Source: Amoebophrya sp. A120 | Lineage: Eukaryota > Protista > Dinoflagellata | DNA: 64,000 bases | Assembly (NCBI GenBank): GCA_905178155.1 | Contig: CAJINV010000008.1 | Location: forward strand, 3,869,420-3,933,419 | Direction of reading: 5' to 3' | In this document: in pieces, positions 1-53,995 of the stretch | How positions within the stretch are numbered: position 1 is the stretch's first letter | How the letters are laid out: every line of letters starts with the position of its first letter | Notes under the pieces: model-generated | What the model saw: the letters and a program-made list of their open reading frames with translations, nothing else | What the model was told of the DNA's origin: nothing | Databases searched by the model: none | Made by a program: the position numbers and the translations under genes

Positions 1-3000
1 CGCGTCGAACCCGCAGCTGGTTGTAACTCAGTCGAGTAATCTCAGCCAATTTGGGCCCGGCATGCTGGGGAACCAAATTCACACGAACGCGTCGTCAAAA
101 AAGTCCTCAAAAGGCACGTCCTCATCCGCGCACCAAAGCCCAAACAACGCCTTCGCGACCTCGTCCGGGGCGCCCGCGACAGGTCATAAGTTTTTTCAGG
201 GCCAGAGTGGCGGACACGGACATCTTCAGCACCAGTCGCAGCATGGCAGCAGTAAAGGGATCAGCTCTGCGAACCATTCGAAAGCAACTGCCACGGCAAT
301 GGGAACAGCGGCAGTAGCTGCTGGCTCTCCTCTCGCAGCAGCAGCACCGTCCTCCTCGTCGACACAGCCTTCGATGAAGTTTTCGTCGATCGCGGCAGCG
401 ACAGCGCTGCAGAAAAGAATAGCGGGGTTGACTAGCAGCGCGTCCTCTTCACTTTCCGTTGATGCACTGGTGAAGCAGAAAATCAGTCCACTAGGTGCTT
501 GTCAAAGTCAAAGTAGTGGAGCGAACCTCATGCAGCTCCACCTCGATGGTGCACCAAACGCGGATCAGCAGGATGGAAGCGCACCATCTAGTTCACTTTT
601 ATTTCTCGACCACCAGCTGGGCTCAACGTCCGCGCCGGACATTTTGAACCGAAACTCGACTACAACTGTGATATCTGACACCACTGGCACAGACACCGTC
701 TCTCCTGGCCTGAAACCGATAAACACGGAGGAGTCGCTCGACGCAGACACCACTTGGGGGGCGGAGCTCGGTGCGAGCTTGTCCGGGTCGATTAAAGATG
801 CGTGCGGGAAGAAGCCCGAGAAGCTAGACAAAACAGAACTGGCCAACATTCTGGCGAAAGCCATGATTCCCGCAATACATAGAGTGTATCAATTCATTTT
901 TTCAAGTCAGATGCTGTGAGTAGCAGTAGGTGAAATCAATAAGAACCTTAACGTAGCTTTTCCGCCGATGCATGATAATCTTATAGACCTACGAGATTAT
1001 GTAGTTGTTCTACTTCATCTCGTTCTCGTCCTGTGGATGACTTCTGCCACTAGTAGCCTGGTTAAGGTTGCGGCAGCTGTGACATGATAAGACTCTAGTA
1101 CGTGAAGACGAGAACAAGTAGATCATGACGTTGCAATGAAGAAGATGAAGAACCCGAAAATCTTCAAAATTTCAGGCAACGACAGAAGAAGGAGGAGCGG
1201 CGACGGCAGCGCGCGGCGATGTCGAGCACGACCTCGCTTGGGAGCAGTGTCACCTCGGCGTCGAACATCATCGCGGGCGCCACCCGAGCCTCGTCCGGCT
1301 CCTTGAAGAGCCGGAACTCCTCGGAGGTCCTGGTGTGCCAGTTCGACGAGCGCGGAAACGTCAGTGTCCTGGAACGCAACCAGCACGGCACGAGTAGTAT
1401 CCTGTGCAAAAGCATCGTACTCGTACTAATCGCAGTCATGCAAGACAAATTCTATTATGCAAGCTAAATCAGAATGACAAATTCCGTTTGTCATGCTGAG
1501 CTAATTTGTGTTGCAATACAACTACGAGTACGAAGATACTTTTGCAGTTCATAAGCAGACCCAAGGTTTTCTCCCTCGAAGACCTGAGCCGCAGAAGGGA
1601 CACGGAGGGAACGCTTGCGGATGTCAAGTCGGTATTGATACATATGAAAGATGATACTCGGGTGAACCGAATAGAAAAAAAACGCCAGCCAATTGCAATA
1701 GCAATGGCCGCGGTGGTGCACAAAAATTAGGAATTCTTGCAAGAAGAAGCAGAAACTTCTTTTCTTTTTGCAGCATGAGCATGACGAACAACATTTCTCT
1801 ATGTAGGTTCTTCGCGAATACCTAGACGGGCAGCGAAATAGCAGTAGCAAGCCGCTCCGCAAAGCCGCAGACCAGCAGAGCTCCTCGAGCCTTTTCCCTG
1901 TGGGTTCTTTTGACGAATTGATTCGCGCGGCCAGCAGCACCACGCCAATGACCGTCTCGGAAAGCTTTCATGCGCTGGGTTCAGAGGGAAATTTCTCACG
2001 GTCGAGCTCCATCATCGGTACAATGTTTGCGTTTGTGCATGGCGAATACATAGTGACAGTCTGATTTAGTTGAGTCAACTAAATGGCATTGGCAGCTTCT
2101 TCCCGATTCGCTTGTGATGGCGAGAAAGATGACGACGAGTCAACAAATGGCCATATACATAGAATGCCTCATTTTGCGTGTGCAGGCACAGGCTGTTATA
2201 CGAATTTTGATTCGAACGGAAGAAAAAAAATCTTCTCCTCGTGATGGCTCTTTACAAAAAAGCAAAAAAAAATCCACCAGGCTCCACGACGACGAGCGTG
2301 GCGGGGGCGGAATCCGCGTACAATTACAAGGAGCGCAACAGTCGAGGCCACCGCTTCCGAAAACACCACACCGGGGCCGGCTCGTCGGAGCACAGCTTCC
2401 AAAATTTCAAGTCCTCCTCCAGTATGCGCAAGGTGATTGGCAACCACAAGGCCCTTCTTCTTCGCAAGAACGGCCGCGAGATTGTGGTTTGCATTCCGGA
2501 GGGGTTAGCAGGTGGTGCGAACAGCAACAATTCCGCCGGGATGTTGAACACTGCTTCGAACAAAAATCTGATGGGCACCAGTACGACCGGCGGTGGCAGC
2601 TCGTGCAGCACCACGACAGAGACGGCGGGAACCAGGGGCGCCACAAGCAGGTCGTCCAACAAAAACTCGTCGCATGGTCCGGGCGTCAAGAAGTTCTCCT
2701 CCACCAACTCTTCCTATGCATTGCAAAAGTGTTGTGCCAGTAGAAATCAGAATCGCATCACAAATTTGGTCAGCATGAACAATCAAAATGGAATTTGTAA
2801 TGCTGGTTCCTAACTAACATGTACAGAGAAAAATCTGCCATGCGTGAAGATTGCCATTAGTACGATACTTTTGCACAGGATGCTTCCCGGGCCAACACGA
2901 CGGTGCACGAGCAGAGCTTCGAGCGCGAACACGTGCCCTTCGTCAGCGAGAGTCCGAGCATCGACATGAAAAGCACTAGTAGGAGTGTGTACAGCATGCA

Positions 3001-3127: not shown

Positions 3128-3378
3128 ATAAAATTTGATTGCTTTGATAGAACAGAAACTGAAACTACTGCCGAGAATATTCATAAGAAACTGTATGGGA
3201 ACCACGAGTTGTTGTGACCTGCGTTCTTCTGACTTATTGCACTTCGTACTCGCTGTCGCTGCAGAAATTTATTTTCCACCGTTGCTTCAACATACGTTTA
3301 CGTTATATAGTTACTATCATCATTCACGATCTTCACCTCCCCAGCCCCATTTCCGAGCGCGGTGGTGGCAACCACGAG

Positions 3379-6300
3379 ATGAATAACAATCGGTCCAGCC
3401 GGCGCAGCGGCAACAACCGGAACAAGCACAACCGCAACCAAGACCACCACAACACCCATAGTCACAGTGGTGGGAAACGGCGTTCGAGCACCAGCAAAAT
3501 GTATGAAATTATGCAGCACGGCGAGGAGACGCCGCCTCCTCCACCCCCGTTGCACGCCCCGGCCTACACACCAACCGCGGGCGGCACGCCGCTCCAGGCC
3601 TACATGACCGCGCCAGGGAGCTACGGTCCGCCGCCCGGGCCGGCGCCCCACCACCACCAGCAGTACGGTCCTGCGGCTCACATCGGGCCTGCTGGTATCA
3701 AATGTAAAAATGTCTGGGTCTGGAAGAGTCATGCTGTTTTTGCATGACACAGAAGGTCTGGCATGGAAGCTCTAGCATCACAGGTTTCGAGAAGCTTCCG
3801 CAATGCCAATGCCGAATCCGCATGACAGATCCCCCAACTTGGTGACAGAAAGTGGGCAGCTTTTGCTACCTATGCATGAGAGATTTTTCTGTGTTCTGAA
3901 AGAGAGTATGTTGGAAAAAAAAAAATCTCAAAGAAATTCTACCGACGGCCTAAAGAGATTCTCCCTCAAAGACATTCCTCCTGCGAGAATATGCCAGGAA
4001 ACGACAAGAAGGACACGCCTGGCGCAACACGGGGCGAGCGCATCAGACGGGGCGCGCTTGGTGGGTTTGTTACCGGTCGCCACCGTCGCGCCGGCGCGCT
4101 GGAAGGGCTTGCGCTAGGCCGGGGCGCCATCGCTATTCAGCGCCTTGTTGGTGCTAGCCTGGCATCGGGGCGCCGGGCTGGTTCGCTGCCTTTTATCTTT
4201 CGCTCGCCCCTTTCCTTCGCCATGGCCGACGTGTTTCAGCCGAGGGAGGCTGCCCCCCTTTCCTATGAAATCCGACGCAACGAAACCGCGCGGCGTTGCG
4301 TGTTCCATCGGTTCGTTTTCTAGCCCTGCCCCTCGTTGCAAATAGAACGACGAAGCTTCCCACCTTCGCTACCCTCTCGCGGTTTTTGCTTCTGACGTGG
4401 CACGCCTCATTCTGTCCAGCGTCGCACTGTTTTGTTTTTGGGCAGCGGCGAGCCTTTGCGTGCGCTCCCGAAGCCTGAAGAGAGGTCGAAGCCGCGCGAG
4501 GTCTGTTTGCAAGTGTGACGCGCGGCCAAATTTTTTGTAAAGTATTGCCTTGCCCGCGCGGGCCCTCAAAGTTTTGAAAATAAAAGCTCTCCCCGCCCGT
4601 GATTTTGAGGCCCGCAGCCGGATCCGGGCGCGGGGGCCGAAAATTTTTTCTTCGCCCGCACGCAGCGCGCGCGCACCCACGCGGGAGCCGGGGACGGCAT
4701 TCATTCTTCGCCGCCGCTCTCTCAGTTGCGAAAAATCGTATTTCGCCCGCGCGGTTGAAGCCCGCGGCCGCCTGTGTGATATGTCTTTGGCCGGCGAGGG
4801 GCGAAGAAATTTTGTTTCCTCGCCCGCGCGCTGGCGTGCGCGCAGATTTTGATCACTCAGGGTCGGGGCCTACCGTGTTCGGCGTTGTTGCTTGTGCCGG
4901 CCGGGCAAAAAATTTTTTCGCGCTGCGCGCGCGTGCCTTTGTAGCGGTTTCGCAAAAGCGATCGCTTTGCGCCCGTGCGCGATTAGGGGCGGACCCGGAC
5001 AAGGTCGCGGCATCGCGCTCGACGTTCATCTTGTGCCGGCTGCACAGAAACGCGCTTGGAGCTACTGCGCCGGGAGTGCGAAGCTTTTTTCCCGCGCGCG
5101 GACCCTTTACTTCGCCCGGCCACACTGTTTGGCGCTGCTCCTTTTCGCTTTACGGAAATTTTTCGTCGCCCGCGCGCCGTGCGCGCGGTGGGTTAGTTTT
5201 TCTCAAGGCCGGGGCCAGCATTGCTGCCGTATCGATCGCACGTCAGGCGGGGCGGTGCGCGAGCGTGAGGCCCGCGGCCGTCTCTGCGATATGTCTGTGG
5301 CCGCCGAGTGGCGAAAAATTTTCCGCGCCCGCGCGTTCCTGCGCGCGCAGACATTGATCAGTGTCGGGGCCTACCGCGCTGGTCCGGTGTTCGTTGTTGC
5401 TTGTGCCGGCCGGGCAAACAAAAAAAAAAAATTCGCCCGCGCGCTGCGCGCGCGGCAATTTACCAAAGCCGGGGGCAACATACATACAGAGTCCGCCCGA
5501 GGCCGGTTTGCCGATCGGGCAGAGTTTTTTTCTCCGCCCGCGCGTTGCGCGCGCGAACCTTGACGAGGGTCGGCGCTGAGGCATCGCGCTCGGCGCTTCT
5601 GTGTCGGCTGCGGAAAAAACGAAATTTTTCGGCCGCGCGCGATGTTGGACGGGGCCGCGGCACCTCGTTCGGCGGTTCTTCGCCGGCTGCACAAAAACGC
5701 GCCCGGCGCTGCTTCGTCGGGCCCGACGCTGCTGCGCCGGGGGCGCAAAATTTTTTTCTCGCCCGCGCGCTGCGCGCGCGATTTTATCATGCTGCCGAGC
5801 CTGCGCCAGATTGTTCGGCGCCTCGCCCCCCTTTGCGCTTGGCGAAAGTTTTTCGTCGCTCGCGCGCGGCGGGCTTTCATGTTTTTCCTCGCTCGCGCGG
5901 CGCCTTACCGCCTGACGCTCAGGCGGTAACGCGCCGGGCGGATTTTTGTCTTTTCAGCTTGGCAATTTTTTTTTCGGGCTTGAAAAAATTCGGGGCGCCC
6001 ATTTCGCGTAAACCTGGCGGGCCCCGCCCCCCCTCATTTCGAGCATGTGGTAGTTGCGCTCTTTCGCAACCCTCCCGGGGCCAAGATTTTTTCTCTGTTC
6101 CTCGACGCAGCATTTCTGCGATTTTTCTTCGTCAGTCTCTTTGGGCCCGGCCCGCGGGCTTTTGAAGTTTGAAGATAGATTAGGCGGGCGGACTTTTGGG
6201 GTAGGGGGTGCGTGCCTTGCCAAGTAAAAAAACGAAGAAAGACGCTGGGCGGGTGTAGGAATAAGTTGGGGAAGTGCAGCTTGGCTGCAATTTGGGTGGT

Positions 6301-9300
6301 AGGTCGGGGCTGTGTAACTCTTCTCTGGAGATGCGAAGCGGCGCGCGCCTCTTCGCATCCCCACGCGCACATCTGTAGCTCCCAGAAATCGATCGCTTGT
6401 CTGTCGTGGGGCGGGCGACGATGCTCGTCGCTTCGAGCACGACCGCCATCTCCTGCAGGTCCGAAACGCGCTTCGGGGTTTCCGGCGCTGGATCTCCGTG
6501 TGAAGCGGAGCCGGACTATAGAGGAAGGAATTAGCGACGGAGACGGACTTTAGGGGCCAGCTTTGGGGGGCAAAACTAGCGATGGAAAGTGGGGTCGGGT
6601 GCGAAAGGTCGGGCGTTAGAAGGCCGCGTCGGGCGGCGTGTTGGGGCTTCGTCGTCTAAGATGGTCTTCTCGGATTTCTCTCCACATCAGGAGCCCCCGT
6701 ACCAGAGAAATGAGCAGGTGCGTGGACGAGGGGGCCGGAGGCTGTATCTACCAGGTAGATACAGCCTCCTGGGGGGGCCTGTAGCTAGGAGGCCTTCTTT
6801 GGGAGCCTGTATCTACCAGGTAGATACAGCCTCCTTCTACCAGGTAGATATAACCTCCTTTGTTTGGGAGCCTGTATCTATGTCCAGGTAGATGCAGCCT
6901 CCTTAGATGCAGCCTCCTTCGGGAGCCTGTAGCAGCTAGGAAGCCTTCTGCTTCTGTGGGAGCTTCTATCTACCGGGTAGATACAGCCCGCGCTAGGGAG
7001 CAGGGTAGGACTGGCGGCCTCGTCCCCACAGCATTAGCTCCCGCCGTGGGCGATTTTCCAGGATATTGGTGTTTTTTGCCCGAATGGTAGTGTTTAGCAT
7101 AGCCAATTCTGGCTACCCAGGGCAGTGGTTGCCCCAGCTGGGGAGGCTCGACAGCAGTCCCCGGCGGGACCGGGCAGGGGCGGGAGGATGGGGCAGGGCC
7201 GCGAGAATCTCTTTGCCAAAGAGATTCTCCCTCACCTGTGGAGAATCTCTTTGTCAAAGAGATTCTCTCACTCGGCGAGCAAGCACGGCCGCAGGAGATT
7301 AACAAATAAAAGGCCAGAAACGCCGCTCCTTGCTCAACCGACGTGCCTGCTCAAGTTAACAATCAAATAAAAGCCAAAAACCGACGTTCCTTGCTCAACC
7401 GACGTGCCTGCTCAAGTTAACAAATAAAAGCCAAAAACCGACGCTCCTGCTCAACCGACGTGCCTTTTCAGCAGAATCTCGCACCTTTTCCGGAGAATTT
7501 CTTTAGATTCCAGAGAATCTCTTTGAGCCTAAGAGATTCTCCGAGATTTTCTTTGCGGCAAGCCTAGTAAATGTCGAGAAAAAAAAAATACGGTAGAAAA
7601 AATCGCAAAGCATCTAGAAAAAATCAAACCGGGCTCCCACTGTAGAAAAAACCAGTCGGGTGCTTTGAGAAAAATCGAGAAGAATGCGCGAAAAATTTTC
7701 TCCGCGCGCGCGCTGCGCGCGCGGCGAGGTTGTTTCTCAGCGTCTCTGCACATGGGGCGCGCCCCAATCTCCGTCTGTCGCTTGAAAAATTTTCTCCGCG
7801 TGCTGCGCGCGCGAGTTTCCTGCCTCGGCCTTCGTCTTGGCCGCCGAGTATGTGGGTGCGGTTCTTCTGCACACAATGCGCGGCCCCGCCTGGCCGCGTG
7901 GCCCGCTTGTCATGTCGGAAAAATTTTCTCCGCGCGCTGCGCGCGCAGCGAGGTGTCTTGTCAGCGCTCCCCACACATGGGGCGCGCACCTACCTCCGTC
8001 TGCCGCTTGGAAAATTTTCTCCGCGCGCTGCGCGCGCGGCGAGATTGCTTCTTCGCGTTCCCTACACATGGGGCGCGCCCCCCACCTTCGCCTGTCGCTT
8101 GAAAAATTCTCTCCGCGCGCTGCTCGCGCGGCGAGGTTGCTTCCAAACGTTCCCAGCACATGTGGCGCGCCCCCACCCCCGTCTGCCCTTTGGAAATTTC
8201 CTCCGCGCGCTGCGCGCGCAGCGAGGTTGCTTCTCAGCATTGCCCACGCATGGGGGGCGCCCCCATCTCCATCTGCCCCTTGAAAAATTTGCTCCGCGCG
8301 TTGCGAGCGCGGCATTGCTACCGTTGCCGTCTTCTTGGCCGCGAAGTATGTCGGCTCGGATCGTCTGCACCCAAAGCCGCGCGCGTCCGCTTGGTTGCGT
8401 GGCCTGCTTTTCGAAAAAATTTCCCCCGCGCGCTGCGCGCGCGGCGAGGTTGCTTCTTAGGGCCCCCCACACATGGGGCGCGCCCGCGCCTTCGTTTGCC
8501 GCTTGCAAAATTTTTCTCCGCGCGCTGCGCGCGCGGCGCGGTTGCTTCTCGGCATTCCCCACACATGTGGCGCGCCCCCACCCCCGTCGGCCCTTTGAAA
8601 AATTTTCTCCGCGCGCTGCGCGCGCAGCGAGGTTGCTTTTCAGAATCCCCCGCACATGGGGCGCGCCCGCATCTCCGTCTGTCGCGGACTTGAAAAATTT
8701 GCTCCGCGCGCTGCGCTCGCGGCTTTGCTCCCTTTGCCTTCTTCTTGGCCGCGAAGTATGTTGGCTCGGTTCGTCTACACCCAATGCCGCGCGCCCCCGC
8801 TTGGCTGCGTGACCCGCTTGTCGGAAAAATTCTCCCCATACATTGCGCGCGCGGCGAGGTTGGTTCTCAGCGCCCCCCACACATGGGGCGCGCCCCCACC
8901 CCCTTCTGCCGCTTGAAAAATTTTCTCCGCGCGCTGCGCGCGCGGCCTTGCTGCCTTCTCTTTGGCCGCCGAGTATTTGGCTGCGGTTCTTCCGCACACA
9001 ATGCGCGGCTCCGCCTGGCCGCGTGGCCCGCTTGTCATGTCGGAAAAATTTTCTCCGCGCGCTGCGCGCGCGGCGAGGTTTCCTGCCAGCTGCCCCCACA
9101 CATGGGGCGCGCACCCACCTCCGTCTGCCGCCTGAGAAATTCTCTCCGCGCGTTCCGCGCGCGGCGAGGTTGCTCCTTAGCGTTCCCCACAAATGGGGCG
9201 CGCCCCCGGCTTCGCCTGCCGCTAGAAAAATTTTCTCCGCGCGCGCGAGGTTGCTGCCCAACGTTCCCCGCACATGTGGCGCGCCCCCACCCCCGTCTGC

Positions 9301-11919
9301 CCTTTGGAAAATTTTCTCCGCTTCTCAGAATTCCCCACGCATGGGGCGCGCCCCCATCTCCATCTGTCGCTTGAAAAATTTGCTCCGCGCGCTGCGAGCG
9401 CGGCATTGCTACCTCTGCTGTCTTCTTGGTTGGCCGCGAAGTATGTCGGCTGGCTCGGTTCGCCTGCGCCCAATGCCGCGCGCTTCCGCTTGGTTGGTTG
9501 CGTGGCCTGCTTTTCGCAAAAATTTTCCCCGCGCGCTGCGCGCGCGGCGAGGTTGCTTCTTAGCGTTCCCCACACATGGGGCGCGCCCCCGCCTTCGTCT
9601 GTCGCACGCTTGGAAAATTTCCTCCGCGCGCTGCGCGCGCGGCCTTGCTGCCTCTGCCTTCTTCTTGGCCGCGAAGTGTGTAGGGTTGGCTACCCTGCAC
9701 CCAATGCGCCCGCTCCCTCGCTTTGCTGCGCTTCCCGCTTGTCGGAAAAATTTTCTCCGCGCGCTGCGCGCGCGGCGTGGTTGCCTCGCCGCGTTACCCG
9801 CGCCCACCGCGCGCTGCGCGCGCGGCTTTGTTATTTCTCTTTTCTCGGCCGCGAGGTCCGCTTTGTTTTGCACACCCAGCGCGCCCGCCCCCGCCTGGTT
9901 GCGTAGGTGGCGGGCCCGTTGGCCTGAAAGGAAAACGAACTTTGTCCGCTTGCAAGACGAGGCCGCTTCGTTCTCAGCGTTGCCCACACATGGGGCGCGC
10001 CCCCATTGCCGTCTGGCGCTTCGCGGTGCTGGGGCTTCGCGCATCGCTTCGCGCGTGCGCGTGTATTCGGCTTTTCCGCTTCTGGGTGGAGGTCTTTTGA
10101 TTTTCCCCGGAGGTGTTTGATTTTTTCTACCGTATTTTGGAGGTTTTCGGCCGCTGGCCTCGAATGGGCGGGACGAGAAGACTTTCGAGAAAAAGCGAGA
10201 ACTTCGAGAAAAAGTGAGAACTTCTCGAGTTCTTGCCATTTTCTCGCTTCTCTCGGTTTCGGACGAGTCCCGTTTGATTTTTTCTACAGCTGTAGAAAAA
10301 ATCAAAACGAGGCGCGTGCTTCTTGTGAGAAAAATCGTCGTCTTTGTGTTTTCTCGTTTGATTTTCTCTTTGTATCCTTTCTCTTCTTTTTTCTCTTTTC
10401 TTCTCGTTATGATTTTCTCTACATATTTTTGATTTTTTCTACCGACACTAGAAAAAATCAAATATTTTATGCGAGGCGACTGGCAGGCATGTTCACAAGT
10501 TTGTCTGCTTCCAGACCCAGACATATTAATTTGCATTGGATAGCTGGGATCCAGCACCACGGAACCACGTATTACCCGACACCCGCGCCAACGCCCACAT
10601 ATCACATGGATCCAATGGGAAATTACCAGCAGGCTCTGGGGAACCCCGCGCAGCCGTATGTCTACATGCAGGTATCTATTGAAGCTTAGATTTTGACCTA
10701 TCAACAGGACATCGATGTTGCTGGTGCTTTTATGCAGTTTGTTGATGCTGTTAGTGTTACTGGAGCTTGTGCTTTCAAATTTGCAACTTCCTGTGACTTT
10801 GTGAGCCAGAAATATATTTTTACGGAGAGCACGACCAATCTTGCGCTATTAACGCTGTGCGCGATCTTTCGAAGTAGGGTTGTTTGAGCCCAGGTGAAAA
10901 TTTTGACAATGAAAAGAATGCCGTCGCATTTCTTTGGTCCTTTTTGTTTACTTCTACGCTCCTACAAAACAAAAGTCAAATAAGTATAAAGTGGAAGTGC
11001 GTATCCAAAAAACAAAAATTGACTCCAGATTCCGTCGGCTCCCCAGGTGGTTTACCACCCCCTTGGCGGGTATCCGCAGATTACGCAGCTGCAGCCAATG
11101 CCGGCCAACTTGCAGCCAGCGCAAGTGCAGCAACTCACGCAACAACCGCCGCCACTAGGGCCACCTCAGCCGCAAAGTAACCCGGCGACGAGTATCAGTA
11201 TAACAAGTCCGAAGCAGCAGCACCACGCTGCTACTTTGAACTTGGTTGCTGCAGGCGGTGGCGCGGGACCACAAATGCCCTCTTCAAATAACGCGGCGAC
11301 ACAGCAGCTACTGAATCCGCTGGATTTGATCCCTCTCCCGTCCGGCGGCGACACCTGCAACAGCACGAGCTCTGCGGGAAATAACAGCACGATGACCGGG
11401 ACCACGACCATCCATGCGTCCTCCTCCACGTCGTCTGCGGGAGCGCCGGTCGTGGTCCCAGCTGCAGGAGCAGGTTGTGCCCCGCCGCCGATGGATCACA
11501 TGCAGTTGCTGCAACAGATCGCGCAGGGGGCCGGTACAACAACTCTCGGCGGTGGAGCTACTGCAGCCGCCTCATCAACATCCACCGCACAGCATCAGCA
11601 GCTGCCGCCACAACTGCCGTCCACGGTTGCAGCAGCTGTCGGAGGAGGAGGAGCCCCCGCCGGGGGTGCACCAGGAGCACCCGGCGGGCCACCAGTCCCG
11701 CCGATAAATCCGCAGGAGCTCTTGGGTTTGATTCCGCGAGAGCACCAACTAATCGGCACCATGGACGCGCGGGGCGGTATCACGTTCTTCAACAACGCAC
11801 TGCAGTCATTGACTGGTGGACCTGCAGCGGGAGCTCCGCCCTCTGGGGGTGCGCGTGCCGCTCCGGCAGGCGCGCCGGGTGGTGCAGCTGGCGGGGTGGC
11901 TCGGACTGGTCCAGGGTAA
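3379..11919 (+). CDS. Pro/Gln/Gly-rich hypothetical protein; exons ~3379-3695, 10548-10671, 11047-11919
   Basis: Removing 3696-10547 joins HIGPAG to IQHHGTTYYPTPAP with the same composition and frame. GT-AG intron 10672-11046 joins VYMQ to VVYHPLGG. The 3' end may continue via a GT near 11917. Confidence 0.7.
6737..6988. repeat. Cluster of ~5 palindromes of (C)TGTATCTACC-A-GGTAGATACAG(CCTCC)
   Basis: Perfect 16-bp arms with a 1-nt spacer at 6737-6769. Degenerate copies at ~6806, 6836, 6872 and 6967. Confidence 0.85.
7299..7464. repeat. Three tandem ~57-61 bp repeats
   Basis: Units start at 7299, 7356 and 7417: TTAACAAATAAAAG..CCTTGCTCAACCGACGTGCC. Confidence 0.9.
7685..9830. repeat. GC-rich satellite, ~20 units of ~91 bp and ~130 bp
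   Basis: Each unit begins GAAAAATTTTCTCCGCGCGCTGCGCGCGCGG. Short units carry CACATGGGGCGCGCCCC; long units carry CTTGGCCGC(G/C). Flanked by TAGAAAAAATC(A) motifs at 7590-7630 and inverted TTTGATTTTTTCTA motifs at 10115-10440. Confidence 0.9.
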
Positions 11920-14161: not shown

Positions 14162-17100
14162 ATGGCACCAGCAGAGCAGCAACCGTCCTCCGGTCCCAGA
14201 AAACAACAAGGTGAAGAGGAAGCTCCGCAAGAATCTTCAATCGTAAAGGACCGGACCGTATCGGTTGACACCGAGGAGCTGTACCCCAATCGCACGGAAA
14301 GCGTCGGTATGTATTGCAAATATGTCTGGGTCTGGAAGAATGCAAGATTTGTCATGCTTGTCTGGCATGACTGTTAACTCTGTGATGCTTAGGCGCGAAA
14401 AGACGCACTTTCCTGTCATGCAAAAACGAAGCCTGCCATGCGGAATACGCAACACACGGGAGCATAGAAACTTGTCGTGCTTGGTCACCTATTGCAGTGA
14501 GCTCATTATTCACAGAGTTGCATCACAAGTTTCCAGACCCAGACATTTTTGCAATGCACAGTCGCCTCTCTCTTTTCCGACGAGCGTGCGCTGGAGCAGG
14601 TCGCCGCGAATGTCGCGGAGAACGCAATTTTTGGGGCGGACAAGGCTGGCGAGGAAGTTTTACACACGACTGCGGATCATGTTCATGATGCAGGAGCAGG
14701 AGGGGCACGATTAGCAGTAAATCAACTTCCTGGCGATCATGATCATCCTCGTGAAGATGTTTGTTCTGCTACCACCGCGCTCCCGTCTGATACTGCAACG
14801 GAAGCAGCACCTCCAGCAACTGCTCAGGCAGCAATTCAGGGATTTGGATTTGCAGCGGCCACTGAGGATGAGGAAACTACAACAGCATTTCCACCAGTTG
14901 ACGGCGAGCCAAGTAGAACAACAGGCGCAGACGGGGGCAGCTCGCAGCTGCCAAAGCACTCCGTTGCTGCACGTCGACAGGACGGCGCTGAAAGTTATGA
15001 ACTAGAGGAAGTGCTGATGTCCACCGCATCGGAGGCGGAAGAGGTCATGCTCGCACGCGTCGCCGCGGCCGTGGTCCACCAGGTCGAGGAGAAGGTGCTA
15101 GGAGGGACGGGAAAAATGGTCGCGGCCCCGGGTCATGAAGTAGATCAAGATGATGGTGACGCGCGAGGGGCTCCTGTACAGCCACACCAGACGACACCTC
15201 CAGGAGATGTTGATCATGGAGCGCCAGAAGTTGTAGCTGCGCGATCCGTAATTTTTGAAGAACAAACGGCAGCACGTGAGGATACTAGTAGAATAAAGCA
15301 GGAGGATGCAGCTCCTTCCGCGAAAGGCACCTCGAGCGTGAAAACCACCCGCCGGGTCAGCTTTCGTGACGACGAGGAGGAAGTCCTCGACCTCGTTCAA
15401 GCACCTGATCTCGGAGTGCTGGGGGCACAGCCGCCAGCAGAGAACGACGTGGACAAACCGCGAGCAGAAGAAGAGCCCGGCTTCTCCGTCACGACAGAAT
15501 CGGAAACGAAAGCGTCTAGTACTGCAGCTGCAGGGCAAAATACTGCGAATTATGCGAACGCCGACCTGGAAAAGTCGGAGCCGACAGAGCTTTCCCTGAA
15601 AATAACAGCGCAAGATCAGATCGCCACTGAGGAGGAAGAAACAACACATACACAATTGAAACAACAACCGGAAATAAAGGACGAGTTATTTTTCGATGAC
15701 GACAGCAATAAAGTCGAAGCTGTTACCGCAGGTTTCTGCCCGTCTTCTTCCAGTGGGTATACCACCCCGCGCGATGTCGGAACGGATACGCAGTCCTCCG
15801 GGGAGGAGACCAACAAGCAAAACAAACTCGTCGCAGCCGAAGTCGTCGCAGCCAGTTCTGACGTGGCAACAGCGGCGCTGACAGACGACCGGCCTTTGAA
15901 AATCAGTTTGGAGGTACTGTAATAAATGTGAATATTACAACAAATCCCCACATTCGCACTTGACTTGTTTAGGCATAGGCTCACCATGCTCGATGATGCG
16001 CGTCGATGAATCTTTTGCACCGTGCTGACTATCATGTAACGTTTGGGTTTGTGTCAACAACGTAAAGCTAGCTGATCATGATTGCAAGCATTGCACCACA
16101 ACGCATGCACATTTTGTTTGCAAAAAAAAACTCAGATCTCCCGTCACGAGCACGGTTCGCGCATTGTCGGCGAGGTTTCCGCTCGCGAACTCACCGACCG
16201 AGACAAGCGTGTTTTAAACGAGGCACTGAAACTCACCATCGACCAGTGGCAAAGCACCAGCACGGGAGCTGCAGCAGCGCTTACAAGAACTGGTGGATCA
16301 TCGACTTCTAGTTCTACTACAGGTGATGGCTCCAGTACAAAAGCGCCGGGTACGGCGCTTGGCGCGACCACTGCGACGACTTCCACGGTTGTGGGACCAT
16401 TAGTACACGACCACGAGTTCTCCCAGCCGGAGTTTTGGACGCAAAAGTCGCTCGCCTACGATTCCTCCGAGGATCCTGCGACCAGTCTGACGCTGACCTT
16501 AAACTGCGAGAGCGGCGAATTGCACGGGCTCAAAATCAGCGCGCGCAGCCAGGCCGAGGACATGGAGAAGTTCGTCATTGAGAGGGCGGCCACGCCGCCC
16601 TTCGTGGCGACTTGTTCTGCGGCCGCGGGGGTGCTGGGGGACGAGGTGCAGATGAAAACGAAGAGGCTGGCGCAGGAGGAGTTGCACAAAATGATAGAGG
16701 AGGAGGAGAGAAGAAACAGGGCGGAAATGGATAGGTACGGAAGGTTGATGGAATTTCTTTGTGCATTTTGTAGTATGTCACGCGCACCAAGGTAGAGATT
16801 GAAGTGGAAATCTTAATCTTCCAATGAAAGCGAACATCAACATTAACATTTACTGTTTCCGTTTCCGTATCAAGAGCAACAATGCGACTGCAAAACGTCG
16901 TCCGGGATGAAGAATTTCACGAAAGAATTCAAAATCCGGACAGAATCCTTCACGAGCGCGCGCAACAAGCGATCAAGATCCAGGCTGCCGCGCGCGCCCG
17001 ACGCGACCGGCGGCGGGCCCAGAGCCTGAAGATGCAGAAAGAGGAAGAGCGCCTCCAGGAGTACGAACGGGTGGCTTTCGCGAAGCGGATGGAGCGGGCG

Positions 17101-18747
17101 GCCACGAGGATTCAGTCGCTGCATATCCAGGAAAAAACACCCATCCACATCCAATTTGTCATGCAGAACACGTATAAAATCCTGTGTCTGTCATGCAAAA
17201 AATGGATGGGGATGGGTTTTTTTCTGTGGATACTGCACCGGGGGAGGCGGGCACGGAGCTTGACGGACGAAATGCGCGAGATGAGGAAGAACGGTATAAT
17301 CACTATCATCTCGTCAATCTTTTGTGAAGGTGACCACTAGAAGATGGGTCCGCAACCATGATTATATCGCGCACAGTTATTCTTGGCAAAAGAATTCTAG
17401 GGAAACCCTCTTGCCACAAGATGAACTCAGTCTTTATCATTTTTGCTTGTTATACGCTTGTGCACGGAGATCGTGCGGTTGTTGCAGCTTTTGCAAGGTC
17501 CGGATGACTTGTGAGACTGACGTACAAACAATGCGGATAGTGCACTAATTCTAATACAAATACAATACTTTTATCGCAGCCGCCTCCGAAGCGATTCAGT
17601 CCCGTTGGCGGGGAGCGGAAGCTCGGGACTTGGTGAAAAACCTGAAAGAGTACAAGCAGAACCACGACCCGCGGACCATTCGAACGACAATGGCCAAGGA
17701 GAACCAGGCGCACAAGATCATGTCAAACTCTACAAGGTATCATGGGCATTCCTCCTCGCAGAAGAGAAAAGCGAAGAAGAAGCTTATCTTGCTGGACCTG
17801 CACCACGTGCACCACCACCACCATTTCCATCAGGTCAAGGCCGGCACTTCTAACCAGAGCGGGGCAGCTGTAGGTGGTGCGAGAACGTCTGATGCTGCTC
17901 CTCGTGGTAGAGAACAGCAATTAGATGCCACGTTGAAGGAAAAGCACCAGGCAGCAGTGGAGCACCAAGCCACACAGTTGACGACCAAGACGTATGTCGA
18001 AAATAGAGCGGAATCTCTCTACCAGGGGAACTACAAAAAATTCATGCTGGACAATGTACGCGTTGTTCTGTTTCCTACGATCATGGAGCTTCATAATAAT
18101 CTATCACTATCAGATACTGATAGCTTATAGATATTTCTGTGTAATAACAGCTGGCTGCGACACAGTTGTCTTGGAAAAATCAACAAAAGCATGATCATGA
18201 ATTGAAAACTCCACCAACATCGCAGCCTCCCTTCGAGTCCGCGGAGGAGTACTACAGTTACGCCTCGAAGCTGCCCGGTGACAAGCGCCTCGACTACCTT
18301 TCCCCGTACCAGTACACTGCGAAACAGCGCGGAAATTACTATGGAGCACCAGCCGCGGCGCACCACAACGTAGCGTCGACCTCCTCATTGAATGGAGGAG
18401 GCCATCATGCGGCCGGTAACGCAATTGGCGGCCCTCGTCCCCCCGTGCACTCGAACCCGCACAGCAAGAGTAGTACGAAAGAGCGGTGGTTTGTGGACGG
18501 GAAACACAACATGACAGCGCCGAGCTCCAAAAGCAGCATGCGCAGCAATAACAAAACCTCCAGCCACTTAATTCGCAGTGTCGACGGGAGCAGCAGCGGC
18601 GCGGCGGGTGGTGCAGCTGGTGGAATGAGCCTCAGCAAGAGTTCATTTTACGGCAAGAAGGTGGACAAAACGCTTCAAAAACAGGCCGGTGCTGCTTCGA
18701 GAGGGTCACCATATGCGGAAAAACGGTTTCTACCCAAGATAGTGTAA
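14162..18747 (+). CDS. Large acidic protein with three IQ calmodulin-binding motifs
   Basis: IQAAARARRDR, IQSLH|RGRRAR (only after removing 17124-17237) and IQSRWRGAEAR. GT-AG introns 15914-16135, 16735-16874, 17294-17579 and 18056-18150, plus introner 14308-14565, keep the frame. Confidence 0.75.
14308..14560. mobile_element. Introner family B
   Basis: TATGTATTGCAAATATGTCTGGGTCTGGAA ... TTCCAGACCCAGACATTTTTGCAATGCACA. Flanks GTCGG / GTCGC. Removal joins ORF 14162 and ORF 14549 in frame. Confidence 0.88.
17124..17232. mobile_element. Introner family C (short, in-frame, stop-free)
   Basis: TATCCAGGAAAAAACACCCATCC ... GGATGGGTTTTTTTCTGTGGATA. CTGCA duplication at 17119-17123 and 17233-17237. 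Splits an IQ motif. Confidence 0.85.
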
Positions 18748-18792
18748 AAAGTGCATGGTTTGTCCCTGGAGCTCGCTGTTATTTGTGGTGGA

Positions 18793-21381: not shown

Positions 21382-24300
21382 ATGGCGACGTACCAGATCC
21401 TCGCCTGCCATGCAGGCGAGCAGTCCAAGGACAGCATCCTTTCAGTGCTCAAGTCCCGCGTCACGAACACCTGTGACGAGGTATAAAATATGCATGCTCT
21501 GGATACACAATCAATTTTTTTTTTTCCTTACAGCTCCTGTGCATAATTTTTACGGTCCTTGATGCAGGTGTGCAAGAATTATGCAGTATCAATTGTTTTC
21601 TGTATATTCAGGTGTGCAAGTTCGACGTTCCGGACACCCTGAAGTTCGGGAGTTTCGACTCCCTGGTGAAGATGATGGACGACCTTTCCAAGTACGACAG
21701 TCAAGTGGAGGGCATCCTGCGACGGATCGAGCGACAAATGACCGACTTGGATGCTAACGCGGACTTCAAAGTGTTGTTCCGGCAGAAAACCATGACGGTG
21801 GAGAGCTACGTCCGCAGCTTCCAGTGGGACGACACCAAGTGGCCCAGGAACAGAAATGTATAATCATAATCATGCACATGCGCTTGACTCTGTTGTAATC
21901 TTTGTGATGTTCTTCTTGCCGGTTTGGAATGAATTTCGAGGATGAAAAGATGAATTAGAATGATTTCATCTACTCCACTTCTCGTGGTAACATGTTGACC
22001 AAGACCAACATGATGTAGTGCATATCACAAAATACAACTTTACCCAGGTTTCTGACAACATGACATCGCTTATGAACACAGTGTCGAGGATTGACGACGA
22101 CGTAAAAAACAAAGCCTACGCGTACGCAGACGTGAAGTCAGTACTGAGTTCTTTTGTAGTTCATTTACAACTTATGATGCTGGACGTAGTACCTACTAGG
22201 CTGTGGTAGTACTTTGAAACTTTAACTTTTTTCACTTTTCTTTGGTTCTTGACCTTGGCGCTCCTCACCAGTTTGAGTTTGAAACCTAAGGAATAAGAAG
22301 TAGAAGTAAAGCAAATAAAAGTACCTGATCCACACCACGACTACAACCAGAGCCTCGCTTCCCTGAACAAGTCGAAGGGACCGGGTACCACGCTGATGAA
22401 TGCGGAGCTTACCGAAATACTGACTCCGGACGTGGTGGCCGCGGACGACTTTATCGCGAAAGAGCACTTGACCACCGTGCTCGTGATCGTGCCAAGGGGC
22501 GGCGAAAAGGAGTTTCTGGAGTCCTACGAGCGCGTGGATCCCTTCGTCGTGCCACGATCAGCGAAGCAGTATCCTGAGTAAAAACGTACCCACACCAGAG
22601 TTGTAATGCAGATTTGCAAAGACAGGAAGACGAAGACTTGTAATGCGCATCCCCATGAGAGCCATTTCCAATCGTGTTTTGGAATTTGTGATGCTGTGAA
22701 CAGGATGAGCAGATGAATCTGTGACGCGGCTGCACTTGCTAACCTGCACTACACTGCCGAGTGCAACTTGTCATGCGTGACTCACAAAACTCCTAGGTTT
22801 GTGTTGCAAAATCCCCATCCTGACTCTGGTGTGGGTACGTTTTTACTCAGGATAAGCAGTTCCAAAAACTCACGGACGGGAAATTGCTCCCGATCGAGGA
22901 CAAGGTAATATGTCAAAATGGTGCTGAGGAAATTCAATCTTTATCGTGCATCAACAACAACATTTACATTTACATTCGCATTCCGGGTGTGCTGGGTGTT
23001 GCTGTTGCTACTGCAATAATTGCTCCTGCTGCTTTTGGTAAACAAGAATTCTGCTCTCGTCGTCTATAGTCCGCAGACCGCAGGGACCTCCCATCATGCC
23101 CGACGACAAATGAAACTGAGTACGCCTATTTTTACTTGAATGAGAAAGTCGAAGTCTGGCGAAAATAAATAAACGACTCGTCTTGCTTGATTGTCTCTAC
23201 TACAGGACGGCAACAGTCTTTGGCGTGTGGTTTGCTTCAAGAAGTCCGTCGAGACGGTGCGAAAGGGTCTATGCATTGCAAATATGTCTGGGTCTGGAAG
23301 GTTGTAACTACTTGTAATGCTAGCTTTCCATACCTAGGAAATCTGTGTTGCATATCCAACAAAAGTCGCGGCCTCTTCTGTTCATGCAAAAACGCAGTTT
23401 CTCATGCGGATTGCCTATGAGGAAGCGTTCTGGAAAGTTGTCATGCTGGGTTGCATTCGGGACTGTTTCTATCATCCACATTTTAGCATCACAAGTTTCC
23501 AGACCCAGACATTTTTACATTTGATAGGGTCTGAAGGAGTGCAAGTGCTCCATCCGGGAATTCAGTTACAGTGTCGACGCCTACAAGGAATTTGTGTTGA
23601 ACGCAGAAACCTTGCAGTTTGAGTTCACCAAGAACGAGATGGGGCTCAAGAGACACTGCGCAGCCGCCTTCTCCGATACGTTGGTAGCGTGGATGCATTT
23701 GAAGGTACTTGTTGTCCCCCCGTTGATGTGTTGATTCGATAGGGATAGTGTGGTCAGTGTCACAGTCATCATCATGTCATAAGAACCATGCTCGTCATCC
23801 TCATGACGTATTTTCATGGTAGATTCTATCACACACTTCATCTTCACGAGCAATGGAAAAATTGAAAAAGAAAAACACGAACCAGATCCGATTTTATGTA
23901 AAATCGTGAAAGTATCTTCAACGATATCATACTCATCAAAGGCTATGCGTGTGTTTGTCGAAGCTATTCTGCGGTATGGTGTGCCGCCAAACTTCGCGAG
24001 CTTCATCGTCCGACCGACATCCGCAAAGAACATTACCAAGCTGAGGACCGTCTTAAACGATGTGTTTTCTGCAAGCGGACTGTTCGGCCAGAACTACCTG
24101 GGTGGGAGTGGTAGGATTTGAGAACTACGATGCTTTTTTGACATGACACTGTTGTATTAAGTACTGATATGTTTTCTCCATCAAGTATTAATAGTATGCG
24201 TTCGCATATCTCTGCCGAGTCATGTCTTTCTTGTCGACACGAAAACGAGGTTCCCCAAAGAACCTAAAAAAAATTTCTATCCTCAGGTGCCACCGCCGAG

Positions 24301-37302: not shown

Positions 37303-37422
37303 TCTACCTCAATTTGCATTTGCATAAAAAAGAAAACATTACTGACGAAGAAAGTAGAGCCCTCATCGTGATCTGCATATCAACATGATGTGGAAGTGCG
37401 CCTGCGCGACTAGTACGAGCAA

Positions 37423-51000: not shown

Positions 51001-53995
51001 TGCTTCCAGTCTGGATTTGGATGCCGTTGATGCGCCGCAGCCGCGGGACGAGGACGACAGTGCCACTGGTGTTGATTATCCGGCACCTCCACCTCCTCCT
51101 CCACGACCCCTCCTCTTCGACACCGGCCGCATTCTAACTCGCAGCAATACTGGCGCGCCTTCGCCGCCACCCCCGGACGACGTGAAGCGCGCTTTCATGC
51201 GGGGAGGTCCGGCGGCGGCAATAGAAGGAGGTGTCCGGCCTGGTTGTAGTTCTTCGGATGATCTCGAAGCATCCCGCGCGGGAGGAACAACAAAAGCGAA
51301 CACCACGAAGGTGTTGCAACGTCGAGCCTCCGAGCGTTGGGCGGACATTCCGGTGGGAACAGGAGAGGATCAGCAAGACGATGAGGACGTCGAGCTGATG
51401 TGTGGTCTTTTCTCTACGGGAGATAGAACCCCGCCGCCGCCACCGGAGACCCCGCCGCCTGCGCTTGTCTACAGCAATAAAAAGCAGGATGATCTCGTCG
51501 TCGTCCCGCTGTCGCTGCGCCAGCACTCCTCTCGCACACTGCAGGCCTTGAACCTACACCTGGCGGAACCCCTCATGAAAAAAGCGAAGGCGCGACAAGA
51601 CAAGCTTTTACTATGAACTGCAAAAGTATCGTACTAGTATAAATCGCATGACAAATGGAATTTGTCATGCTGTTTCACCTTGGGATGAAGATTTGGAATG
51701 CATGACTGCGATTACTACGAGTGCGATACTTTTGCACAGGATATTTACTTGACACCAGCAATCCTGCAGCGAATCGGCCATTGGGTCCGGCGATGGTGGT
51801 ATCAAGAGCAAAAATCCCCCCGCCCCATATCAAAGCGGAAATCTGTGATGCAGATTTGTGGCCACAAATCAGCTTTGTGATGCTAGAAGGCAAAAGATGC
51901 GGACTGTAGTGCTATCTAGCGTGGGAAAGTGTTGCATCTCCAGCATGTTGACACGAGGCAACTGGAAGTGGGAAACAGCATGACAAATTGCCTGCAATTC
52001 AGGCCACAGCTGCGTCTCTTGGCCTTCTAGCAATACAAGTCGATTTGTGTACTCAAATACAGCATCACAAATTTCGTTTCCGATATGGGGAGGGGGGATT
52101 TTTCTTCTTGATAGGTGGACGTGGACGTGGGCATAAAGAAGACTTCTGACCTCCGGATGGAACAACATCAGCAAGTTGCCTTGGCCGATAGAAGTGGTCT
52201 TCAGGAAGTGGAAGGAGAAAATTTATCCGAGGTGGACGACGGTGCAGCATCAACATCATCTGGTGAACCGGGTTGGTTTCCCCTCGATTTCGACTGGAGA
52301 AAAGGGAAGACATCGAATTGGAAATCGCCACTGCGTTTGGGCTTGCTTGCGGATGATGAACGTACACGTCGTAGCTCCTTGTTGACTCAGATTCACGGCG
52401 AATTGGTAGAGGGTCCTTCATCCGTCCGTGATTCCCCCACAGCAACATTTTCCCCATCGTTCCCCATTCTCCGCCGCGAGGATCGGCAGTATACACCGCT
52501 GCGGCTCGGCGTCGGCAGCAAAGTACTGTCCGCTCTGGGCGTTGGGACAGTAGTCGCTGATAGAAAAAGTAGCCCATCAGCTTCTAGTACATCGAGTTCT
52601 TCGGGCGGCGCAATGAAGGAGGTGGAGCAGGGTGTAGAAGATGTTCAAAGTCAGCGTCAGCGAGGCAAACACGCAGAAAGGTTCGCAACTAGTACAACTG
52701 GTGCTGGTTGCACTACAACCGTGGCAGGCGTGTTGGAGGACGGCTGCAAGAACTCTAGCGCAGCTGCGCCTTCTTCTCCATCAACTACACAACGTGATCG
52801 TGAGGATGCGAAACAACTACAACATCACCTAGGAACGATATCAAAGATCAAGAAGCAGAAACGCCGAGCCCAGGAAATCAAGCCCGATGATCCCGAGGGC
52901 ACGCCGAAGCTGACGCCCAAAGGCATGCTGCGGCAGCTGAGCGAAGCGTGGATGCCCTCCGCCGGTTCCTCCGGTGCGGGAACGGAGTTGCATGATTTGG
53001 CGCAAGTACTATCGCACGAAAGTTTTCTCTCAGGCGACAAAGACAACTCTTCAGCGGACCACCTCCGGCAAAATTCATCAACGAAAGCGAAAGCAAACGG
53101 GACAAGTACTGGGCCGGGGCAGGATCAGCGAGTTGCACATCAGCAGGTTATTTCGCGTGACCCTGGTCATATTCCTGCCTACCACAAAACAAGAGGCGCC
53201 GGCTCTCGACATTTCCATCCCGAAGACTTGGATGTTGAGCTGCCTGAGGATGCAGAAGCAATGACTCCGGGTTTCAATGCTACGAAAATCACGGCTCGCA
53301 TGAATTCTGTCGGAAAAACTGATGTTGACCTGCTTAACGACGGTTTTATGCTACCCGAACAGGCAACCCCTCCACCAACAGCAGCGACGATCGAAGCAGG
53401 CCGCTCTATCTTCGATCCGCTGCCGCTCAGGGCAAGGACACCCTCGGGCGAAACGATTGTTCTTTCTGCCGCTTTGGAAAGTGTTGTCTCCTCGTCTTTC
53501 ATCGGTGGTCCAGGATCTTCAGCATCTGCTTCTGAGCAGGTGCAGCTTGAAAGGAAAAAGGATGGCCAGATGCAAACAAGAACCAATAGCAAGAAAGCGA
53601 AATCCACATGGTCCAAAAACAAAAGGGAAAGGTTTCTGTCAAGTGCGTCATCTTCTGGCGCTGGAGGTGCACCCACCATGGGAGCAGCTGGCAGTACAAC
53701 GACGAATGGCGCGCATCAACATCGCGAACAACGAGATGAGGAGGCAGGTGGCGCAAAGACTCCAACTTCCAATTACACGACGTCCACGGAACGCGTGCGG
53801 AGGCCGCTGATGCCCCAACGTCGCAAGGGGTTCTGGGCCGATTCCTTGGCGCATGAGACTGGCAGCGGCGATGGGGGAAGCGACACGGACTGCTGTCCAA
53901 ACGGGTTTGAGGAACTTTCCGGGTACACGTGCGTAGCTGCGGGCGGGTCGAACGCAGCTGATCCACGGTACTACAGCCAAACAAATCTAGATTGA
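48041..53995 (+). CDS. Large low-complexity protein with N-terminal hydrophobic segment, coiled-coil-like stretch and CCCH-like zinc-finger motif; exons 48041-51611, 51749-51799, 52119 onward
   Basis: Motif NPGSAGHPYACFGDGCKYF..GCKDGDRCTRCHICCW at 50597-50743. Two introner removals fuse ORFs 48005, 51721 and 52115 (KLLL|DTSNP..AMV|DVDVG). Confidence 0.82.
51612..51743. mobile_element. Introner family A
   Basis: TATGAACTGCAAAAGTATCG ... CGATACTTTTGCACAGGATA. TTTAC duplication at 51607-51611 and 51744-51748. Removing 137 nt restores the frame. Confidence 0.9.
51800..52113. mobile_element. Introner family E
   Basis: TATCAAGAGCAAAAATCCCCCCGCCCCATATC ... GATATGGGGAGGGGGGATTTTTCTTCTTGATA. GGTGG duplication. 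Precise GT-AG excision is possible (51796-52114). Confidence 0.9.

What the first reader, a model, noticed from the sequence alone, without database searches (positions are those of the whole stretch)
1398..52118. Multi-family transposon-intron system: 11 TAT-initiated TIR elements with 5-bp TSDs inside coding exons
Seen: 11 insertions (1398, 2715, 3696, 14308, 17124, 22570, 23270, 24315, 43255, 51612, 51800) in six genes, and I found none in intergenic DNA. About 5 TIR families share one design: TAT start (ATA end in 9 of 11), an A-run ~10 nt in, a 5-bp duplication, and frame restoration on removing the element plus one duplication. For seven (1398, 2715, 17124, 22570, 23270, 43255, 51612) no GT/GC-AG pair at the ends restores the frame; 24315 needs GA-AG. 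Established: Amoebophrya genomes are reported to carry non-canonical introner elements with inverted and direct repeats (Farhat et al. 2021), so the class is not new, and to my knowledge the removal mechanism is unresolved. Inference: excision is defined by the TIR stem and TSD, not by splice dinucleotides, at either RNA or DNA level.
Basis: partly seen in the sequence, partly recalled or inferred. Interest (0 to 1): 0.9.

Follow-up and report, generated by a model that had tools for sequence, protein, structure and literature searches.

The report
Amoebophrya introners removed in either orientation
Eleven small transposon-like inserts interrupt coding exons of the marine parasite Amoebophrya; they belong to an already described class of odd introns, sit in genes in either orientation, and are likely cut out of the messenger RNA by a machinery that reads their mirror-image ends instead of the usual GT-AG splice signals.

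Summary
In detail: 11 TAT-initiated TIR elements, five families, 5-bp duplications (9 exact), all in coding exons, but in five genes, not six. The host is Amoebophrya sp. A120. Farhat et al. 2021 already report this exact design (TAT + 7 nt + AAA, 3-5-nt direct repeats, RNA-supported introns), so the class is known.

Added here: an RNA contig loses exactly element plus one duplication at 17124. Database proteins show the same at seven sites, including a 6,852-nt removal at 3696 (nested 6.6-kb insert), and skip in-frame GT-AG pairs at three. DNA contigs keep the elements, which argues against DNA-level excision. Among 189 copies from another assembly only 22 could be GT-AG. Same-family copies lie in both orientations in genes. 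A shared subterminal motif recurs every 31-33 bp. Against a pure RNA-stem model, G-U pairs are not favoured (46:45). The machinery is still unknown; a relaxed spliceosome reading symmetric end motifs is my best guess. The scan noted look-alike introns in other dinoflagellate DNA.

The parts
1398..1553 (.). Introner, family B, 156 bp, duplication AGTAG/AGCAG (one mismatch); inverted relative to 2715 and 51612
   Evidence: database protein P0002 joins across it
2715..2882 (.). Introner, family B, 168 bp, duplication CTTCC, ends ATG
3696..10542 (.). Introner, family A, duplication GCTGG, inverted relative to the other four family A copies; 6,847 bp because of a nested insert
   Evidence: P0002 joins 3695 to 10548 with no extra residue; RNA contig leaves the laid stretch upstream of 11026 without running over its end (indirect)
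3902..10491 (.). About 6.6-kb GC-rich insert with 91-bp-unit arrays inside element 3696; no duplication or TIR recognised, no Pfam match in 9 of its ORFs; right border approximate
14308..14560 (.). Introner, family A, 253 bp, duplication GTCGG/GTCGC; mRNA keeps the right copy's last base
17124..17232 (.). Introner, 109 bp, duplication CTGCA; 3n and stop-free yet removed; removal gives IQSLHRGRRAR (IQ-like motif, label recalled)
   Evidence: RNA contig length 3217 = precise model
22570..22854 (.). Introner, 285 bp, duplication AGCAG, in V-ATPase subunit C
   Evidence: RNA contig length consistent only
23270..23526 (.). Introner, family A, 257 bp, duplication GGGTC, in V-ATPase subunit C
   Evidence: RNA contig length consistent only
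24315..24576 (.). Introner, family A, 262 bp, duplication GAGGA, in V-ATPase subunit C
   Evidence: RNA contig piece starts at 24576, the edge of the repeat
43255..43522 (.). Introner, family A, 268 bp, duplication TGCTC, in a gene with weak ankyrin matches; junction not checked by RNA or protein
51612..51743 (.). Introner, family B, 132 bp, duplication TTTAC
   Evidence: P0003 joins across it
51800..52113 (.). Introner, 314 bp, duplication GGTGG; one precise register reads GT-AG
1..11919 (+). Host gene 1 (starts upstream of the window; low-complexity protein P0002, 1961 aa)
14162..18747 (+). Host gene 2 (P0001, Amoebophrya sp. A120 unnamed protein)
21382..24637 (+). Host gene 3, V-ATPase subunit C
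42095..44442 (+). Host gene 4, ankyrin-like; 3' structure unresolved
48041..55850 (+). Host gene 5 (P0003, Amoebophrya sp. A120 unnamed protein)

Best explanation
These are Amoebophrya A120 introner elements, non-coding TIR elements with 5-bp duplications that sit in exons in either orientation and are likely removed from pre-mRNA, with one duplication copy, by a relaxed spliceosome that would read their symmetric end motif rather than GT-AG. Shown: structure, host, exon location, both orientations, exact removal in one RNA contig and in database proteins, presence in DNA. Inferred: insertion by a trans-acting DDE transposase that binds the 31-33-bp-spaced subterminal motif and makes a 5-bp staggered cut. 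Inferred: because the ends are mirror images, either orientation offers N|TAT at the 5' end (matching the local GTAY donor except at the first base) and a U-run near the 3' end; the TIR stem holds the ends together, even 6.8 kb apart; the cuts fall at fixed offsets that together take five flanking bases, so the original mRNA is restored whatever the target sequence. My odds: known class 0.97, precise RNA-level removal 0.9, spliceosome as the catalyst about 0.5.
For: Host: exon translations match proteins named Amoebophrya sp. A120 at 100%. Design as published. RNA: X1 has zero depth in silent DNA at 27326-29900 and skips GT-AG introns; its 3518-nt contig places 14561 at record position 3217, exactly the precise model. 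Proteins P0001-P0003 equal the precise models at 7 of 7 elements in their genes and do not use the +3 GT-AG pairs at 3696, 14308 and 51800. Ten of 11 retained elements would add stops. Orientation: 3696 and 1398 are inverted relative to family mates in + strand genes; family A is 22:22 in related loci (strand called for 79 of 191; caller 86 of 87 correct leaving one gene out); 9 of 14 neighbouring same-family pairs are opposed. Duplication bases are nearly free: 189 of 235 have an exact 5-mer, only 22 of 189 allow GT-AG. For a spliceosome: 12 of 14 canonical donors in the window are GTAC or GTAT; the 14308 cut is at or before the base preceding TAT; slight excess of GT-AG-compatible sites; A120 keeps 83 of 89 spliceosomal proteins and lacks detectable U1.
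Against: No lariat, branch point or circle was seen; the catalyst is untested. The register of the cuts is unknown apart from the one limit at 14308. A fixed branch point is hard to square with five families in two orientations. No G-U bias in the stems (46:45). Family B copies with a strand call in related loci were 6:0 in one orientation. Only 17124 has exact RNA arithmetic; the joint table was swamped by repeat copies and showed no RNA joint directly. Database proteins come from a transcript-based annotation and are not independent of the same RNA; 22570, 23270 and 43255 have no exact junction evidence. No transposase was found.
Confidence: 0.5

Rival explanations
1. Removal is at the RNA level but not spliceosomal: a dedicated endonuclease and ligase, perhaps transposon-derived, recognises the paired ends or the shared subterminal motif, cuts and joins the exons, as proposed for euglenid nonconventional introns.
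For: Orientation-blind and target-blind removal; strong terminal stems, z -4.2 to -9.1 in 10 of 10 short elements against -2.6 to +1.1 in 14 canonical introns; motif in 186 of 189 copies and 0 in 3151 nt of canonical introns; euglenid introns leave as circles (review passage).
Against: No enzyme candidate found; N|TAT matches the local donor; small excess of GT-AG-compatible sites; no wobble bias. The 31-33 spacing fits DNA binding for transposition.
Confidence: 0.35
2. The precise junctions are reverse-transcriptase template switches across a hairpin between direct repeats (recalled artefact), and the true splice points differ or removal is incomplete.
For: Stable hairpin plus direct repeat is the substrate for such jumps; all RNA data seen are assembled short-read contigs.
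Against: Ten of 11 retained elements would break the genes, among them V-ATPase C; the repeat is only 5 nt; the long contigs carry the removed form; a 6.8-kb removal is annotated.
Confidence: 0.07
3. Elements are excised from DNA in some life stage, like ciliate internal eliminated sequences.
For: TIR plus duplication is a DNA substrate; 31-33-bp motif spacing suggests DNA-binding protein; removal of element plus one repeat is what precise DNA excision would give.
Against: In run X7 (DNA-like, even depth 25-37) contigs run unbroken from exon 24-30 nt into each of the five short elements in the laid stretch at single-copy depth. Life stage unknown and contigs drop rare variants; 391 joint rows were not shown.
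Confidence: 0.05
4. A normal spliceosome uses nearby in-frame GT/GC-AG pairs and tolerates small changes in the protein.
For: Such pairs exist within 15-20 nt of all 11 elements.
Against: RNA length at 17124 and proteins at seven sites match precise removal, not these pairs.
Confidence: 0.03

Closest known systems
Introner elements (IEs) / non-canonical introns of Amoebophrya sp. A120 (Farhat et al. 2021, PMC7789003; abstract, sections 11, 16, 25, passages, supplement part 3 and legends read)
   Same: Same organism; TAT + 7 nt + at least three A; inverted repeats; 3-5-nt direct repeats (Fig. S19 legend: 5 bp); hairpin; non-canonical ends; 1,954 families, 29,850 copies; no internal transposase.
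   Different: No difference in kind. Not found in the main text ('nested' 0, 'lariat' 0, 'orientation' only for genes): both orientations, unused +3 GT-AG pairs, multi-kb nested intron, shared 31-33-bp-spaced motif. Supplement figures could not be seen.
A120 introner families in Gozashti et al. 2025 (PMC12130899; section 6, passages, 22 of 58 A120 rows of the family table)
   Same: 58 A120 families, most rows seen classed TIR DNA, superfamily unknown; fam12 (252-260 bp), fam14 (106 bp), fam17 (149 bp) match the lengths seen here (match by length only).
   Different: They list splice sites as annotated and note a family 38 with TIRs and Copia/Gypsy-like ORFs, a candidate mobiliser that I could not compare.
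Euglenid nonconventional introns (PMC12501133 abstract and introduction; PMC11282704 section 6)
   Same: Non-GT-AG ends, TIR stem joining the ends, repeats at junctions, MITE origin proposed, machinery unknown.
   Different: Euglena needs a CDG...CH'G signature at fixed spacing; these elements have TAT-N5-G-N-AAA ends and an exact 5-bp duplication.
Fritillaria borealis non-canonical introns (review passage, PMC11282704)
   Same: TIR/TSD-derived introns removed by an altered spliceosome.
   Different: Fritillaria has dominant AG-AC/AG-AT ends and a preferred TAC flank; here the flanks are nearly free.
IS3EU/GingerRoot and Ginger2 DNA transposons (PMC10045372 passages)
   Same: TA..TA termini (IS3EU/GingerRoot); 4-5-bp duplication (Ginger2).
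   Different: IS3EU/GingerRoot make 6-bp duplications, seen in 0 of 235 here; no transposase to classify.

Membership tests
Amoebophrya A120 introner elements | Host is Amoebophrya A120 | tested here: met
   100% identity to proteins named A120
Amoebophrya A120 introner elements | Terminal inverted repeat starting TAT + 7 nt + at least 3 A | tested here: met
   11 of 11 left ends against the text
Amoebophrya A120 introner elements | 3-5-nt direct repeat at the junctions | tested here: met
   9 exact, 2 with one mismatch; 189 of 235 exact 5-mers in related loci
Amoebophrya A120 introner elements | Repeated in families | tested here: met
   (depth far above single copy)
Amoebophrya A120 introner elements | Absent from mRNA with non-canonical ends | tested here: met
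   RNA contigs at 14308, 17124, 24315; database proteins at 7 sites; not checked exactly for 22570, 23270, 43255
MITE (non-autonomous TIR transposon) | TIR, fixed-length duplication, short, no transposase, many copies | tested here: met
   (largest copies 457-1031 bp, longest stop-free stretch 151 aa, not scanned)
MITE (non-autonomous TIR transposon) | Empty orthologous site or cognate transposase | not tested
   no orthologous locus among the 143 fetched; no whole genome held
Canonical-end introners that co-opt GT/AG from the duplication | GT/GC-AG ends built from element and duplication | tested here: not met
   1 of 11 in the window; 22 of 189 in related loci
IS3EU/GingerRoot | TA..TA termini | tested here: met
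IS3EU/GingerRoot | 6-bp duplication | tested here: not met
   0 of 235
Euglenid nonconventional introns | 5'-N3CDG...CH'GN5-6|R signature | tested here: not met
   by inspection of end columns
Euglenid nonconventional introns | Released as circles, not lariats | not testable with these tools
   needs RNA experiments
DNA-eliminated sequences (ciliate IES type) | Excised alleles in DNA | tested here: inconclusive
   none apparent in one DNA-like run of unknown stage; rare variants and 391 joint rows not visible

The most novel reading that the evidence does not exclude
Amoebophrya runs a second, non-spliceosomal RNA excision system that recognises transposon ends (the symmetric TAT-N5-G-N-AAA motif or the phased AAAYYTGTSATGC boxes), works in either orientation, at any target sequence and over several kilobases, and seamlessly undoes a 5-bp duplication; it may derive from the transposition machinery itself.
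Probability: 0.3. Interest if true: 0.85.

Novelty: already known. Interest (0 to 1): 0.4.

Why it matters
The elements are a published class, so the window adds no new system. How tens of thousands of such introns are removed is an open question, and this analysis narrows it: RNA level, orientation-blind, nearly target-blind, exact even when GT-AG is on offer, tolerant of a 6.6-kb insert, with the 5' cut upstream of TAT. Copies with mismatched duplications (1398, 14308; 27 more in related loci) let existing RNA reads fix the cut register. A seamless, target-independent RNA excision signal would also be of use as a scarless insertion tool.

Tried and rejected
Raw-read runs X11 and X12 laid almost nothing on exons (80 and 4 reads), so they gave no junctions. 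Including the DNA-like run swamped the joint table with element-to-element joints from other loci; no RNA joint row was shown. Read-level junctions for 1398, 2715, 43255, 51612 and 51800 were not obtained, so the synonymous mismatch at 1398 remains unread. No full-length V-ATPase C relative was retrieved; single exons match Pfam and PDB (one exon found nothing). No transposase: 0 Pfam families in 13 window ORFs and 3 proteins; five larger copies in related loci have no long frame. Rfam: no match. The idea that G...G duplications give GT-AG splicing with one extra codon was rejected at three of three sites. An RNA-wobble test was null. GT-AG excess is not tied to one register. The codon score cannot tell precise removal from +-3 nt. 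Papers: searches found no study of the A120 removal mechanism; Roy et al. 2023 is not held and was not read; supplement figures S19-S25 of Farhat were seen as legends only; a search on template-switch artefacts found nothing, so that rival is recalled.

Full report
Observation. All 11 elements are present. For each start, the best inverted partner within 8 kb is followed by a copy of the five bases before the element. Nine duplications are exact and two differ at one base; nine elements end in ATA. Element 3696 ends at 10542: family copies of about 250 bp align to 3696-3901 and again to about 10492-10542, so a 6.6-kb GC-rich insert with 91-bp arrays lies inside it. Internal sequence sorts the 11 into five families. 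Removing element plus one duplication gives stop-free models for four genes; the ankyrin gene's 3' part stays unresolved. There are five host genes, all on the + strand. Ten of 11 retained elements would add stops; 17124 would not (the phase used there for 51800 was off by one, but its length alone shifts the frame). No other copy is detectable in the window, and 11 of 11 in exons is unlikely by chance at about 48% coding DNA (p about 3e-4 with my rough models).

Identity. Two exon translations match proteins named Amoebophrya sp. A120 at 100%. Farhat et al. 2021 (PMC7789003, section 11) state that A120 inverted repeats start with TAT, then seven variable bases, then at least three A, with 3-5-nt direct repeats, in 1,954 families; Table S4 gives 65% non-canonical introns. 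Gozashti et al. 2025 list 58 A120 families, with lengths like those here among the 22 rows read. The class and its design are published.

RNA or DNA. I laid four of 13 listed runs on 10400-29900. X1 behaves as RNA: no depth in silent DNA, GT-AG introns skipped. Its 3518-nt contig puts 14561 at record position 3217, and the precise model gives 3217, so exactly 114 nt are gone at 17124. The same contig breaks off at 14561 and another at 24576, both at the edge of the right duplication. The V-ATPase contig has 1183 nt upstream against 1130 nt of modelled coding sequence, which is consistent with removal of 22570 and 23270 but not proof. A third contig has 1317 nt upstream of 11026 and no X1 record runs over the end of the stretch, which is indirect support for removal of 3696. 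X7 behaves as DNA; its contigs run from exon into each element at single-copy depth, which gives no sign of excised alleles, with the limits that the stage is unknown and rare forms are dropped. The joint table showed only repeat artefacts from X7, and X11 and X12 barely mapped.

Junctions in proteins. P0002 equals my gene 1 model over all 831 residues, P0001 the gene 2 model over 1076 and P0003 the gene 5 model over 1824; the differences lie at the C-termini, away from the elements. Seven elements are thus removed precisely in these proteins. At 3696, 14308 and 51800 an in-frame GT-AG pair at the very ends would add one codon and is not used; at 51800 one precise register is itself GT-AG. At 14308 the protein reads ESVASL, so the last base of the left copy goes with the intron: the 5' cut is upstream of TAT. 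The A120 annotation was built from transcripts, so these proteins are a proxy for RNA, not independent evidence.

More copies. A 21-base TIR motif found 144 stretches (143 distinct loci) in 18 of 64 parts of the metagenome collection, all with one assembly prefix. A scan that required TAT...ATA ends and TIR similarity but no duplication found 235 elements at least 60 nt from locus ends: 189 have an exact 5-bp duplication, 27 one mismatch, 0 a 6-bp one; 19 with more mismatches were dropped. All four bases occur at every duplication position. Only 22 of 189 allow GT-AG on either strand and 37 GT/GC/GA-AG. Random insertion into the same flanks gives 13.4 +- 3.5, with 2 of 300 trials reaching 22, and G...G or C...C duplications are 38 against 28 expected: a small bias towards splice-like sites. 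Flanks are exon-like: 5 of 189 below 45% GC against 1091 of 3789 background windows. Frame continues after precise removal in 32 of 44 confident same-strand cases; 12 further confident cases gave opposite strands.

Orientation. In the window, 3696 is inverted relative to four family mates and 1398 relative to two. In related loci family A is 22:22 relative to the host strand (79 of 191 called); family B is 6:0. The caller was right in 86 of 87 held-out pieces and agreed in 28 of 29 pairs within loci. Without any strand call, 9 of 14 same-family pairs within 1.5 kb are opposed. A strand-specific internal splice signal is therefore not needed.

What is read. The ten short elements fold into terminal stems (z -4.2 to -9.1; 14-25 of 25 end bases paired), the 14 canonical introns do not. 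But stem positions 4-7 are often unpaired (127 of 216 at position 7) and G-U and A-C oppositions on the transcribed strand are 46:45 in 76 of 79 copies, so selection on RNA pairing is not shown. G at position 9 is kept in 345 of 378 ends, a position my scan did not fix. A motif AAAYYTGTSATGC occurs in 186 of 189 copies across families (12.9 per kb against 0.09 in flanks, none in 3151 nt of canonical introns), with spacings of 31-33 in 159 of about 400 cases (hand-summed) and 31 or 32 the commonest in all seven TIR groups. Three helical turns suggests transposase binding on DNA (inference; copies within a family are not independent). Canonical donors here are GTAC or GTAT in 12 of 14, which N|TAT mimics.

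Mechanism. Insertion is most likely cut-and-paste transposition in trans with a 5-bp staggered cut; no transposase was found. The ends resemble IS3EU/GingerRoot (TA..TA) but those make 6-bp duplications; A120 family 38 with integrase-like ORFs is a candidate. Removal is at the RNA level. I put a relaxed spliceosome at about 0.5, given the donor mimicry, the 14308 limit, the small GT-AG excess, the nearly complete spliceosome without detectable U1 and the Fritillaria precedent. A dedicated cut-and-ligate system like that proposed for euglenids gets 0.35; template switching 0.07; DNA excision 0.05; shifted canonical sites 0.03.

Verdict. Real, correctly recognised, already known. The orientation, unused GT-AG, nested 6.85-kb intron and phased motif results were not found in the papers I could read (Roy 2023 not held) and sharpen an open question. 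Interest 0.4.

Noticed in passing
window 45869-47058: Intergenic TIR element of another kind: ends TTACAGCC...GGCTCTAA with an 8-bp direct repeat ATAAGTGG.
   Followed up: partly
window 18748-19883: Element with long inverted repeats flanked by a direct repeat of about 45 bp just after gene 2's stop; P0001's C-terminus jumps from 18648 to 19868, and RNA contigs end at 18778 and start at 19853.
   Followed up: partly
window 3902-10491: 6.6-kb GC-rich insert with 91-bp-unit arrays and palindromes, no recognised ends or coding match, nested in an introner.
   Followed up: partly
window 30178-37302: A 7.1-kb open frame without any intron or element and without Pfam match.
   Followed up: partly
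window 26290-26901: Gene that looks like ubiquitin-S27a ribosomal fusion with a divergent ubiquitin-like part (read by eye, label recalled); highest X1 depth in the laid stretch.
   Followed up: no
window canonical introns, e.g. 2018-2280, 15914-16135: Several GT-AG introns have A-rich rather than pyrimidine-rich stretches before the acceptor.
   Followed up: no
window 56860-58150 and 60950-62900: Intergenic duplicated segment of about 900 bp and GC-rich tandem arrays with palindromes.
   Followed up: no
L055:2991-4021, L062:4014-4985: Longer family A spans (about 1 kb) with exact 5-bp duplications; possible nested or composite copies.
   Followed up: no
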